A stretch of 64,000 nucleotides of DNA from Lama guanicoe (lineage: Eukaryota): NCBI GenBank assembly GCA_013239625.1, contig MU053561.1:4465992-4529991 (forward strand). Direction: 5' to 3'. Within the stretch, counting starts at the first letter, position 1. The number at the start of each line of letters is the position of its first letter. Under the pieces are notes generated by a model, which saw nothing but the letters and a program-made list of their open reading frames with translations, was not told the DNA's origin and made no database searches. Positions 17,510-39,015 of this stretch are shown piece after piece. The position numbers and the translations under genes are program-made.

Positions 17510-17650
17510 TCCTGTATGGGGGGAGGGGGGGCGGGTCTGGGCGCGGCCTGCCGCGTGACTCCTGGGTCGGAGGCCCACGTGGCCGGGGCGGGGACTCGGG
17601 CGCCTGGGGCGCCTACTGATTACGTAGCGGGCGGGGCCGGAAGTGCCGCT
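17510..17650 (+). promoter_or_regulatory. NRAS: NRAS TATA-less CpG-rich promoter
   Basis: GC boxes 17585-17593 and 17629-17636, E-box CACGTG 17576-17581, ETS motif CCGGAAGTG 17637-17645, G-tract cluster 17518-17541. Confidence 0.85.
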
Positions 17651-17745
17651 CCCTGGTGGGGGCTGTTCATGGCGGTTCCGGGGTCTCCAACATATTTCTC
17701 GGTTGTAGTCCTAATCTGTCCGAAGCGGAGGCAGCGGAGCTTGAG
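17630..17745 (+). other. NRAS: NRAS exon 1 (non-coding 5'UTR; start approximate)
   Basis: Ends ggagcttgag|gtaagg; resembles human NRAS 5'UTR; splices to cag|gttcttgctggtgtgaaATG at 18234. Confidence 0.85.
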
Positions 17746-37080: not shown

Positions 37081-37548
37081 AAATTTATACTGCTGATCCA
37101 AACAATTCTGAGAAGTGATCTAGTCCTTTCCGCATTATAGAATTGGCTGAAACCATCCCTTGCCATTAAAAATCACCTTGTTCTATTTCTTCATAGCACC
37201 CATTACTACTTGAATGTAATAAGCAGGACAGTGTCTGGTTAGGTTTTCAAAAGTTGAGGGCACACAACTAGTAAGAGGAGGAGACAATTAGAACCAAGGT
37301 CTAGTTTATCTTAGTCACTTAAACTTGATCTTTTTAAATGCCCAAGAAATATTTGTTGAAACAATAAATAAAGAGCCAGCAAAATGTTCTTGGACTGAGA
37401 ATATAATGATCAAAGTTGATGTTTCAGAAAGACTTAACCTGGCAGTACTTTGCAACATGGAATGGATGTGGGGAAAATAATTAAGAATCTATTACAATCA
37501 TCTGAATTTGAAGTAACTAAGAAAGTCAGTTAGAATTACATTGGCTGC

Positions 37549-37911
37549 CGCTGTCCCGTGAGGCTTGTGGGGCAGGTGGGGCCGGGCTGGGGCTGGAGCC
37601 GGTTAGGCCTGTGCTTGGGGTTGGGGTCGGGGATGCAGCAGCCGGGCCGAACTGCCTGGCTTGGTCTGTGGCTGAGGGATGGTGACCAAGCAGGTGGTTG
37701 TGACAGTCTGGCCCCTCAGAAAAAGGGAGACCAAAGAAGGAAGAAGAATTATTGGGGAAGTTGATGGCAAAGTGGCAAAAATCAGGAATTTAAAGGTGAC
37801 CGTCAACCCAATGGCTTTGGCAACTCCCAGGAGAAGGTTGTGGCATTTGGCTTTGATTACTGCTACTGGTCAGTCAACCCAGAGGACCCCCAGTATGCAT
37901 CTCAGGGTGTG
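37549..37911 (+). pseudogene. STARD9: Processed retrocopy of the 5' end of STARD9 (KIF16A): 5'UTR + first ~78 codons of kinesin-3 motor domain
   Basis: ATG 37679: MVTKQVVVTVWPLRKRETKEGRRIIGEVDGKVAKIRNLKV, then after a 1-nt deletion (~37797) DRQPNGFGNSQEKVVAFGFDYCYWSVNPEDPQYASQGV; matches recalled STARD9 MANVQVAVRVRPLSKRETKEGGRIIVEVDGKVAKIRNLKVDNRPDGFGDSREKVMAFGFDYCYWSVNPEDPQYASQDV; intronless; CpG decay. Confidence 0.9.
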
Positions 37912-38198
37912 TCTTTTACAGGCAGCTGTCCAGTTTTCCCAGCACCACTTACCGAGGAGACCGTCTTTTCTCCATTGTATATTCTTGCCTCCTTTGTCGT
38001 GGTTTGCTTGGCATGAGTGCTTGGGTTTATTTCTGGGCTTTTTGTCCTGTTCCATTGATATGTGTGTCTGTTTTGTGCCCCCACCATGCTGTTTTGATTG
38101 CTCTGGCGTTGTGGTGTGGTCTGGGGTTGGGGAGTGTGATTCCCCCAGCTCCGTTCTTCCTTTTCAAGATTGTTTTAGCTCTTCAGGGTTTTCTGTGT
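37912..38198 (-). mobile_element. Antisense LINE-1 ORF2 fragment inside the STARD9 retrocopy, A>G hypermutated on + strand
   Basis: Minus-strand translation QWNRTKSPEINP / DKGGKNIQWRKDGLLGKWCWENWTAACKR = L1 ORF2. Confidence 0.9.
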
Positions 38199-38890
38199 TA
38201 AAGATATTTATTAAACCATTGTTAGTGGGGATAAAATAGTAGAAACAAGTGATTGTCCATTTACAGGGCAATGGTTGACTTAATTCTGGGGCATTTACAC
38301 CATGGAATATATTGTAGATGACTTAGAATTTCTATGAGACAGTGTTAACTGTGAAAAGCAAGATGTATGATAACATCCCATTTTTAAAAGAAATAACCAA
38401 AACCCATAAATCTGTGAGTGTGTGTGCATTTATGATTATGACTGTGGGAAGAACAAGAAATGATGCCAGTTGTTATTACCTGCAGGTAGGGGTTAATGTA
38501 TGATGAGGGGAAAGAGGGGTGGCAAATAAAAAGGAAATAAAGCAAAGCATTCCCTGCAGGGTTGGAGGGTGGGGTAGAGAATTACATTGGCTGCTAGCAG
38601 CCAAAAACTCTAACTAATCAGTAGATAAAACAAATTAATTTTTCTTAAGTATTAAGAAGTCTGGAGGTGGGCAGCCCAGAGCTGACCTAGTAGCTTTAGG
38701 GTACCATCAGGGACCCTCGCCCTTTCTTTTTGCTCAGGCATTCTTCACACTTGGCTTTTGTCCTGCCTGTCACTTGTGTTACAACAATGGTTGATTTGCA
38801 CTCACCCTACCCAGATATTTTCTTATTCCAGGCAGGAAGAAGAAGGGCAAAATGCAGAACATAATGCCAGCTGACTGGACCTCTCTCTCT

Positions 38891-39015
38891 TTTTTTTTTT
38901 TTCCTGAGGGGGAGACAAATAGATTTATCTATTTATTACTGGGGGTACTGGGGATTGAACCCAGGACCTTGTGCATGCTAAGCATGTGTTCTACCACTGA
39001 GCTATACCATTCCCC
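38891..39015 (-). mobile_element. tRNA-derived SINE (Vic-1-like)
   Basis: gtactggggattgaacccaggaccttgtgcatgctaagcatgtgttctaccactgagctatacc with T-tract. Confidence 0.9.

What the first reader, a model, noticed from the sequence alone, without database searches (positions are those of the whole stretch)
37906..38140. Dense A>G changes on the transcript strand: candidate genomic fossil of ADAR A-to-I hyperediting
Seen: only 11 A in 150 nt (37991-38140) and none in 38098-38132; 9 of the 11 survivors follow G or C. Against the antisense L1 consensus as recalled (gattactgtagctttgtagtatagtctgaagtcaggg), the copy reads gattgctctggcgttgtggtgtggtctggggttgggg. By eye there are roughly 15 A>G changes, mostly in TAG/TAT/TAC context. 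Conserved ORF2 residues shift as T>C on the L1 strand (I>T in WNRT, Y>H before DKGGK, F>L in DGLLGK), and STARD9 GAT(D) reads GGT at 37906-37908. Established: ADAR prefers 5' U/A and 3' G, disfavours 5' G, and inosine is copied as G; APOBEC3 would give G>A instead. Inference: an edited RNA was reverse-transcribed into the germline. Caveat: several T>C differences are also visible, so GC-biased conversion is an alternative.
Basis: partly seen in the sequence, partly recalled or inferred. Interest (0 to 1): 0.85.

Follow-up and report, generated by a model that had tools for sequence, protein, structure and literature searches.

The report
A-to-G hyperedited retrocopy of STARD9 transcript
A reverse-transcribed copy of an alternative STARD9 messenger RNA carries a dense, one-stranded burst of A-to-G changes that its parent gene lacks, which looks like RNA editing by ADAR frozen into the genome.

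Summary
Window 37549-38577 is an L1-type processed retrocopy flanked by a perfect 17-nt target-site duplication. It copies STARD9 exons 1-3 spliced exactly onto an alternative last exon. That exon is built from an antisense L1 ORF2 fragment plus unique sequence with AATAAA signals. The parent lies on another contig of the same genome.

I polarised the differences with 28 and then 29 other L1 copies. The retrocopy lineage has 16 A>G changes and the parental lineage has 0. All other changes are balanced (16 vs 12). Fifteen A>G fall in 131 nt (37999-38129), which is 15 of 26 ancestral A sites. T>C on the same strand is rare (1 site there). Neighbouring bases follow the published ADAR1 order. The adjacent exons and the unique 3' part show no such bias.

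This rejects GC-biased conversion, gene conversion and chance, and fits ADAR hyperediting before reverse transcription (about 0.7).

Three gaps remain:
- No inverted L1 partner exists in 60 kb of the present parental locus.
- A G-rich 22-mer sits where the poly(A) tail should be and is unexplained.

This is a new member of a known kind.

The parts
37532..37548 (+). 5' target-site duplication AGAATTACATTGGCTGC. The site is preceded by TT, so the target reads TT/AGAA, an L1-endonuclease-like site.
   Evidence: Perfect 17-nt direct repeat with 38578-38594. Context read.
37549..37725 (+). Copy of STARD9 exon 1 (5' UTR and start of the kinesin motor ORF), with heavy CpG decay, one frameshift and an 18-nt gap.
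   Evidence: Matches G000:C9598:6691055-6691249 at 75%. Alignment. Boundary at 37725/37726.
37726..37795 (+). Copy of STARD9 exon 2, joined to exon 1 with no intron.
   Evidence: Matches C9598:6695978-6696051 at 96%. The parental exon is flanked by AG and GT.
37796..37911 (+). Copy of STARD9 exon 3. It contains the A>G at 37907 (GAT>GGT).
   Evidence: Matches C9598:6697808-6697925 at 92%. The parental exon ends GATGTG|GTAATG. The exon 3 translation hits proteins named StAR-related lipid transfer domain containing 9, at 75-96% identity among the named hits.
37912..38199 (+). First part of the alternative terminal exon: a 5'-truncated L1 ORF2 fragment lying antisense (L1 sense is the - strand). 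It is spliced onto exon 3 at the parental acceptor TTTCAG|T.
   Evidence: Contiguous with parental L002:1502-1790. More than 5800 first-look L1 candidates in the genome. The minus-strand translation matches human LINE-1 ORF2p residues 893-939, E=7.6e-14.
37999..38129 (+). Core of the A>G cluster. Fifteen retrocopy-lineage A>G at 37999, 38001, 38006, 38011, 38015, 38037, 38088, 38100, 38105, 38113, 38116, 38118, 38124, 38125 and 38129. A 16th lies at 37956.
   Evidence: Polarised with two outgroup sets, giving the same 16 sites. 15 of 26 ancestral A sites became G. Clustering permutation p=0.001.
38200..38555 (+). Second part of the alternative terminal exon. This sequence is unique: only the parent and this copy exist in the genome. 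AATAAA at 38525-38530 and 38536-38541.
   Evidence: Only 2 matches in the genome, at 100% and 88%. 35 mismatches over 355-356 aligned positions with no directional bias. Signals located.
38556..38577 (+). G-rich 22-mer (G14 T4 A3 C1) in the position where the poly(A) tail is expected. Origin unexplained.
   Evidence: Parental homology stops at 38555. No source was found in the genome, the fetched loci or the window.
38578..38594 (+). 3' target-site duplication.

Best explanation
Window 37549-38577 is an L1-mediated processed retrocopy of an alternative STARD9 mRNA. That mRNA comprised exons 1-3 spliced to a terminal exon created by an antisense, 5'-truncated L1 ORF2 fragment plus downstream unique sequence with a poly(A) signal. 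Before reverse transcription, a stretch of about 130 nt in the antisense-L1 part of that RNA was in a duplex. There it was promiscuously deaminated by an ADAR (A to inosine). Reverse transcriptase copied inosine as G, so the insertion fixed 15-16 A>G changes on the transcript strand.

Shown here: the retrocopy anatomy, the parent, the polarity, clustering and strand asymmetry of the changes, and agreement with the ADAR1 neighbour order.

Inferred: that the agent was ADAR acting on RNA, and what the duplex partner was.
For: (1) Retrocopy. A perfect 17-nt direct repeat flanks a 1029-bp insert. Its parts map in order to C9598: three exon matches, then a contiguous stretch 29 kb downstream. The joins fall exactly at parental GT/AG boundaries, including TTTCAG|T for the L1 exon. 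The copy ends 14-19 nt after AATAAA. The unique 3' part has only these two copies in the genome.

(2) Polarity. With 28 L1 copies chosen by likeness to the retrocopy, the retrocopy has 16 A>G among 34 private changes and the parent has 0 among 16. With 29 copies chosen by likeness to the parent, the retrocopy lineage has 32 changes (A>G 16, T>C 5, others 11) and the parental lineage has 12 (C>T 7, A>G 0). 16 vs 0 gives binomial p=3e-5. In the first set the non-A>G changes are 18 vs 16 (p=0.86).

(3) Density. 15 of 26 ancestral A sites in 37999-38129 became G. PMC3113232 (passages read) states that 50-60% of adenosines in dsRNA longer than about 50 bp can be edited.

(4) Strand asymmetry. 16 of 48 A against 6 of 119 T (odds ratio 9.4, p=5e-6).

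(5) Context. The 5' neighbours of edited A are T9 A2 C2 G3, against C11 G8 T7 A2 for kept A. A 3' T is depleted (2 of 16 against 12 of 28, p=0.049). A rank score built on hADAR1's 5' U>A>C>G and 3' G>C~A>U gives 3.38 vs 2.18, one-sided p=0.006.

(6) Locality. Outside the core, parent-A to retro-G is 11 of 223 parental A; in the core it is 15 of 28. The neighbouring exons show the opposite trend (G>A 14, C>T 8, A>G 2).

(7) Background. The 29 parent-like L1 copies have 0-4 private A>G each (mean 1.76).
Against: No duplex partner was found. blastn of the whole alternative exon against C9598:6688001-6748000 gave only the self hit at E<=1e-5; that region covers all upstream pre-mRNA and 20 kb downstream, with 269 N. 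The best RNAduplex energy of the edited segment against the pre-mRNA (-80.6 kcal/mol) equals that of shuffled controls (-77 to -84). The MFE fold of the exon shows no long helix over the segment.

Depletion of 5' G alone is not significant (3 of 16 against 8 of 28). Single-neighbour tests are borderline (p about 0.05). The score test was designed after seeing the data.

Four ancestral A sites became T or C (38003, 38007, 38080, 38181), which ADAR cannot produce. Five T>C also lie in the retrocopy lineage.

The expected poly(A) tail is replaced by a G-rich 22-mer that editing alone does not explain.

Among copies picked by likeness to the G-rich query, one L1 copy (L029) has 14 private A>G and 9 T>C, so A>G-rich copies do exist in the genome.
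Confidence: 0.7

Rival explanations
1. A DNA-level, strand-asymmetric burst of A>G. It would arise during or after integration, for example by error-prone synthesis at WA motifs (polymerase-eta-like) during gap repair of the insertion, or by misincorporation of dC opposite rA by the reverse transcriptase.
For: 11 of 16 changed A have a 5' T or A, which also fits a WA motif (motif recalled, not tested). Four other ancestral A sites changed to T or C. The tail position is also strongly G-enriched, with T and C mixed in. No dsRNA partner was found.
Against: The burst is confined to 131 nt of a 1029-nt cDNA. The 131 A of the adjacent unique part show only 7 unpolarised A>G, and the 19 A in the 34 nt next to the tail show none. 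A pool-imbalance or polymerase effect should act along the whole cDNA. The A:T asymmetry (15 A sites against 1 T site in the core) is far stronger than I recall for polymerase-eta tracts. 3' T depletion and 3' G preference follow ADAR1.
Confidence: 0.17
2. GC-biased gene conversion, or a regional weak-to-strong substitution bias, acting on the retrocopy after insertion.
For: Retrocopy-lineage T>C is slightly raised: 5-6 against 1-2 in the parent, with an outgroup mean of 3.0. Three T>C lie close together at 37923-37962.
Against: The process should be strand-symmetric, yet A>G per A is 33% against T>C per T of 5%, and only 1 T>C sits in the core. Flanking parts of the same insert show no weak-to-strong excess. 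From the counts, I tally 13 weak-to-strong against 16 strong-to-weak in the unique 3' part, and 11 against 28 in the exons.
Confidence: 0.04
3. The Gs were inherited or copied from another template: a G-bearing L1 copy by ectopic gene conversion, a different (lost) parental paralogue, or an L1 subfamily that carries G at these sites.
For: L029 and L019 share 9 and 6 of the A>G positions with the retrocopy. At 37999, 7 of 28 copies have G.
Against: No L1 copy in the genome is closer than 84% to the retrocopy's L1 part. That is no better than the parent, so there is no donor. L029 and L019 were selected by likeness to the G-rich query; in the parent-selected set no copy has more than 4 private A>G. 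The L1 part is contiguous with unique sequence that has only one other copy, the parent, and with an exact splice join.
Confidence: 0.04
4. Chance accumulation of ordinary substitutions in a T-rich antisense L1, noticed because the reader scanned for odd composition.
For: The window contains roughly 400 non-overlapping 150-nt stretches.
Against: 16 vs 0 in a relative-rate test (p=3e-5). Clustering p=0.001. Asymmetry p=5e-6. The background is 0-4 A>G per copy. These survive a correction of about 400-fold, alone or jointly.
Confidence: 0.01

Closest known systems
Genome-encoded A>G clusters in mammalian retrotransposons read as ADAR editing before re-integration (Knisbacher & Levanon 2015, Ann N Y Acad Sci 1341:115). 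I saw only the reference-list entries and one citing sentence. The content is recalled; the paper is not held.
   Same: The same logic applies: an RNA edited A-to-I is reverse transcribed, and the Gs become germline DNA, detected as dense one-stranded A>G against a progenitor.
   Different: Here the carrier is a processed pseudogene of a host mRNA, and the exact progenitor locus is present in the same genome. The edited element lies antisense inside an exon rather than being the mobile element's own RNA. No inverted partner is visible.
ADAR hyperediting of long dsRNA (Eggington, Greene & Bass 2011, PMC3113232; passages and Table 3 read)
   Same: About 58% of A converted within the core, against a published ceiling of 50-60%. 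Neighbour order 5' U>A>C>G and 3' G>C~A>U is reproduced in direction.
   Different: That work measured editing on a defined perfect duplex in vitro. Here the duplex is hypothetical and the edits are read from DNA tens of millions of years later.
Canonical L1-mediated processed pseudogenes (target-primed reverse transcription in trans)
   Same: Intron loss at exact junctions, a 17-nt target-site duplication, a TT/AGAA nick site, a 3' end shortly after AATAAA, and frameshifts with CpG decay.
   Different: No A-rich tail: 22 G-rich bases stand in its place.
APOBEC3 G>A editing of retroelements (Carmi, Church & Levanon 2011; reference entry seen, content recalled)
   Same: A deaminase footprint fixed through a retrotransposition intermediate.
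   Different: The change is the opposite one (G>A on the plus strand, from C>U on the cDNA). In the core there are 0 G>A.

Membership tests
L1-mediated processed pseudogene (retrocopy) | Introns removed exactly at the parental exon boundaries | tested here: met
   Three joins (exon 1/2, 2/3, 3/alternative exon) coincide with parental GT...AG boundaries.
L1-mediated processed pseudogene (retrocopy) | Target-site duplication of about 7-20 bp at an L1 endonuclease-like site | tested here: met
   Perfect 17-nt repeat. The target reads TT/AGAA. The consensus TT/AAAA is recalled.
L1-mediated processed pseudogene (retrocopy) | 3' poly(A) tail following a polyadenylation signal | tested here: not met
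   AATAAA is present 14-19 nt before the end of homology. What follows is a 22-nt G-rich tract with 3 A.
L1-mediated processed pseudogene (retrocopy) | An intron-bearing parent gene elsewhere in the genome | tested here: met
   C9598:6691055-6727868. The exon 3 product is named STARD9 by its sources.
ADAR hyperediting footprint | Derived A>G on the RNA-sense strand only, against the progenitor | tested here: met
   16 A>G in the retrocopy lineage against 0 in the parent. 16 of 48 A against 6 of 119 T.
ADAR hyperediting footprint | A dense cluster, up to about half of the A in a stretch of 50 nt or more | tested here: met
   15 of 26 ancestral A in 131 nt. Permutation p=0.001.
ADAR hyperediting footprint | Neighbour preference 5' U>A>C>G and 3' G>C~A>U | tested here: inconclusive
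   The direction is right and the combined rank score gives p=0.006. But 5' G depletion is not significant (3 of 16 against 8 of 28), and the single tests give p about 0.05.
ADAR hyperediting footprint | A long double-stranded partner, typically an inverted repeat in the same transcript | tested here: not met
   No second copy of the exon on either strand in 60 kb of the parental locus. Duplex energy equals the shuffled controls. A trans partner or a lost partner cannot be excluded.
ADAR hyperediting footprint | A>G mismatches in RNA reads of the progenitor exon | not testable with these tools
GC-biased gene conversion tract | Weak-to-strong changes on both strands alike | tested here: not met
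   In the core, 15 A>G against 1 T>C despite about twice as many T.

The most novel reading that the evidence does not exclude
The duplex partner was not in the STARD9 transcript at all. It was the sense mRNA of the then-active L1 family. When the retrocopy was made, the exonised L1 fragment was young: 2 shared-derived changes against 12 later ones in the parental lineage. It would therefore have been about 98-99% complementary to contemporary L1 mRNA.

Pairing in trans would create the ADAR substrate. ADAR1 is reported to bind the basal L1 RNP (PMC5224506, passages read). Pairing would also tether the STARD9 mRNA to an L1 particle. That would favour its reverse transcription in trans: hitch-hiking by base pairing, with the editing scar as its record.

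A bolder add-on is that the G-rich 22-mer is what remains of an edited A-tail.
Probability: 0.15. Interest if true: 0.75.

Novelty: new member of a known kind. Interest (0 to 1): 0.5.

Why it matters
The progenitor exon and its retrocopy sit in the same genome. This makes it an unusually clean natural case in which an RNA-level modification appears to have been written into germline DNA. All 12 substitution types can be polarised, and the edit pattern can be read site by site.

It also documents an ancient alternative STARD9 isoform that ended in an exonised antisense L1.

The absence of any cis partner raises a testable question. Can host mRNAs carrying antisense L1 pieces pair with L1 mRNA, get edited, and be preferentially retroposed? 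If that were general, retrocopy/parent pairs across genomes could serve as a fossil record of germline dsRNA and ADAR activity.

Tried and rejected
RNA check. The look-up of sequencing runs on the parental exon listed 24 runs. So expression and editing of the parental exon remain untested, and the un-laid shares are not counted as evidence.

Cis partner. blastn of the alternative exon against 60 kb of the parental locus gave only the self hit. The inverted-repeat scan of L002 found only short arms of 29 nt or less, none spanning the edited segment. The MFE fold showed no long helix there. The RNAduplex scan matched the shuffled controls.

Source of the 22-nt tail. A genome pattern search allowing up to 3 mismatches gave 42 forward and 73 reverse hits, against 32 and 28 for the reversed control. 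None was exact apart from the site itself. There were 0 hits with up to 5 mismatches in 266,658 bases of fetched loci and none elsewhere in the window.

Polarising the unique 3' part failed, because only the parent and the retrocopy exist.

The first outgroup set was biased towards G-bearing copies because it was chosen with the retrocopy as query. I therefore repeated the analysis with a parent-chosen set. The same 16 sites came out.

Literature. Four full-text searches turned up no paper describing an ADAR-hyperedited processed pseudogene of a host gene. Knisbacher & Levanon 2015 is not held. The 2016 review PMC4982230 (passages read) says a role of ADAR editing in Alu subfamily evolution 'has not yet been determined'. 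The supplements of these papers were not opened.

Earlier scan notes: nothing found for this place or sequence.

Full report
1. THE OBSERVATION

There are 11 A in 37991-38140 and none in 38098-38132, and 9 of the 11 survivors follow G or C. Stretches of 150 nt with 11 or fewer A occur at only two places in the 64 kb: here, and at 17517-17539. The latter is an ordinary GC-rich promoter-like island.

2. WHAT THE REGION IS

A perfect 17-nt direct repeat (37532-37548 and 38578-38594) brackets a 1029-bp insert. Searching the window's own genome places the parts of the insert, in order, on another contig (C9598). There are three short matches at 6691055-6691249, 6695978-6696051 and 6697808-6697925, followed by one contiguous 655-bp stretch at 6727214-6727868, 29 kb further on.

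In the parent the three short matches are exons flanked by AG and GT. The third ends GATGTG|GTAATG. The long stretch begins right after TTTCAG. The window joins all four pieces exactly at those boundaries. The exon 3 translation hits proteins named StAR-related lipid transfer domain containing 9, with kinesin Pfam domains; the named hits are at 75-96% identity.

The first 288 nt of the last piece (37912-38199) are an L1 fragment lying antisense. Its minus-strand translation matches human LINE-1 ORF2p residues 893-939 (E=7.6e-14), and the genome holds thousands of look-alikes. The remaining 356 nt are unique: only the parent and this copy exist. They carry two AATAAA signals, and homology ends 14-19 nt after the second.

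The target reads TT/AGAA at the 5' edge of the duplication. The exonic part has a frameshift and heavy CpG decay.

This is therefore an L1-type processed retrocopy of an alternative STARD9 mRNA whose last exon was an exonised antisense L1. Divergence in the unique part is 35 mismatches over 355-356 aligned positions. By my own arithmetic with recalled mammalian neutral rates, that is very roughly 25-50 million years.

3. THE SUBSTITUTIONS

Parent against retrocopy over 37911-38555 gives 84 mismatches, of which A>G are 24 and T>C are 17, unpolarised. For the L1 part I polarised each difference by the state in other genomic L1 copies.

The first outgroup set had 28 copies, but these had been picked by likeness to the retrocopy and so lean towards G-bearing copies. 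It gave 34 private changes in the retrocopy, of which A>G were 16, against 16 in the parent, of which A>G were 0.

The second set had 29 copies picked by likeness to the parent. It gave the following:
- Retrocopy lineage: 32 changes (A>G 16, T>C 5, A>C 3, C>T 3, five others with 1 each).
- Parental lineage: 12 changes (C>T 7, no A>G).
- Shared-derived: 2.
- Ambiguous: 4.

The same 16 A>G sites came out both times: 37956, 37999, 38001, 38006, 38011, 38015, 38037, 38088, 38100, 38105, 38113, 38116, 38118, 38124, 38125 and 38129.

16 against 0 gives p=3e-5. In the first set the other changes are balanced (18 against 16, p=0.86). The 29 parent-like copies have 0-4 private A>G each.

4. SHAPE OF THE BURST

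Of 48 ancestral A sites in the L1 part, 16 became G. Fifteen of these lie among the 26 A sites of 37999-38129, where 8 stayed A and 3 became T or C. A permutation test for this clustering gives p=0.001.

On the same strand only 6 of 119 ancestral T became C (odds ratio 9.4, p=5e-6), and only one of those lies in the core.

Outside the core, parent-A to retro-G is 11 of 223 parental A. In the core it is 15 of 28. The adjoining exons show the reverse trend (G>A 14, C>T 8, A>G 2). The unique 3' part shows none (A>G 7, G>A 5). The 34 nt before the end of homology, with 19 A, are identical to the parent.

5. CONTEXT

Edited A have 5' neighbours T9 A2 C2 G3. Kept A have C11 G8 T7 A2.
- 5' T enrichment: p=0.054.
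- 3' T depletion: 2 of 16 against 12 of 28, p=0.049.
- 5' G depletion alone is not significant: 3 of 16 against 8 of 28.

A rank score built on the published hADAR1 order (5' U>A>C>G, 3' G>C~A>U; Table 3 of PMC3113232, read) is higher for edited than for kept sites. The values are 3.38 against 2.18, one-sided p=0.006 overall and p=0.008 within 37991-38140. This test was designed after seeing the data. The same paper states that 50-60% of adenosines in long dsRNA can be edited, which matches 15 of 26.

6. MECHANISM

The burst is derived, one-stranded, lies on the transcript strand of a sequence that demonstrably passed through RNA, is confined to about 130 nt, is near the known saturation level, and has the right neighbour tendencies. 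This is what ADAR hyperediting followed by reverse transcription predicts.

GC-biased conversion is contradicted by the strand asymmetry and by the unbiased or opposite spectra next door. Gene conversion from another L1 is contradicted because no copy is closer than 84% to the retrocopy's L1 part. An effect of the polymerase or the nucleotide pool should not spare the A-rich 3' part of the same cDNA.

I put ADAR editing at about 0.7 and a DNA-level burst at about 0.17.

7. WHAT DOES NOT FIT

(a) The classical substrate, an inverted L1 in the same pre-mRNA, is absent. The exon has no second copy on either strand in C9598:6688001-6748000. Its best duplex with the pre-mRNA is no better than that of shuffled sequence. 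The exon alone folds without a long helix over the segment. The locus may have changed since, or the partner may have acted in trans.

The exonised L1 was young when the retrocopy was made (2 shared-derived changes against 12 later ones). Sense mRNA of the same, probably still active, L1 family would therefore have been nearly perfectly complementary. ADAR1 has been reported to bind the basal L1 RNP, although that study saw no editing of L1 RNA itself (PMC5224506, passages read). This trans-duplex, hitch-hiking idea is speculation.

(b) Where the poly(A) tail should be (38556-38577) there are 22 bases with G14 T4 A3 C1. There is a sharp boundary to unedited A-rich sequence, and no source was found anywhere I could search. 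An edited A-tail would need a U-rich partner and leaves 5 non-purine letters unexplained. A template switch or later decay are alternatives. I leave this unexplained.

(c) RNA evidence is missing. Six runs on record as RNA hold 0.23-0.48 of the parental exon's sampled words.

GAT>GGT at 37906-37908, Y>H before DKGGK and F>L in DSLFSK>DGLLGK are real retrocopy-specific changes. 'I>T in WNRT' is not: the parent and human ORF2p also read WNRT.

9. COMPARISON AND NOVELTY

The principle is in the literature: A-to-I edited RNA of retroelements fixed as genomic G, and A>G hypermutated retroviruses. I could see only the citation entries of the key paper, and my account of its content is recalled.

Four full-text searches did not surface a described case in a processed pseudogene of a host gene with its progenitor exon at hand. 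That is a limited search, not proof of absence.

I rate this a new member of a known kind. It is moderately interesting in itself, and more so if the missing cis partner means pairing with L1 mRNA.

Noticed in passing
window 38556-38577: A G-rich 22-mer (G14 T4 A3 C1) occupies the place of the retrocopy's poly(A) tail, directly before the 3' target-site duplication. There is a sharp boundary to unedited A-rich sequence, and no source was found.
   Followed up: partly
L029 (G000:C3168:1260241-1260531) and L019 (G000:C9044:1137129-1137414): Two other L1 copies of the same ORF2 stretch carry 14 and 9 private A>G on the antisense strand (L029 also has 9 T>C). They share 9 and 6 sites with the retrocopy. 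They were picked by likeness to the G-rich query, so selection bias is likely. Whether they are also edited antisense exons was not examined.
   Followed up: no
window 37722-37742: Four non-CpG G>A differences from the parent in two tight pairs (37722/37724 and 37741/37742; GGGGG>GGAAG turns Gly-Gly into Gly-Arg). These could be a small APOBEC-type mark on the same retrocopy or just chance.
   Followed up: no
window 17510-17700: The only other A-poor stretch of the window is a GC- and CpG-rich promoter-like island, followed by an ATG and a GT donor-like site. This is an ordinary cause of low A.
   Followed up: partly
window 38880-39010: A tRNA-derived SINE-like element follows a T-run about 300 bp downstream of the retrocopy. 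It is unrelated to the finding. I identified it by eye only.
   Followed up: no
proteins P0004, P0006, P0009, P0017: Several mammals have short annotated STARD9 products (82-133 aa). They follow exon 3 (...YASQDV or ...YASQDM) with unrelated short tails. This hints that termination or alternative exons right after exon 3 recur across species.
   Followed up: no
L002:1502-2155 (C9598:6727215-6727868): Public runs on record as RNA (X3-X6, X10, X13) hold 0.23-0.48 of the sampled words of the parental alternative exon. Four of them are labelled reproductive-system metagenome.
   Followed up: partly
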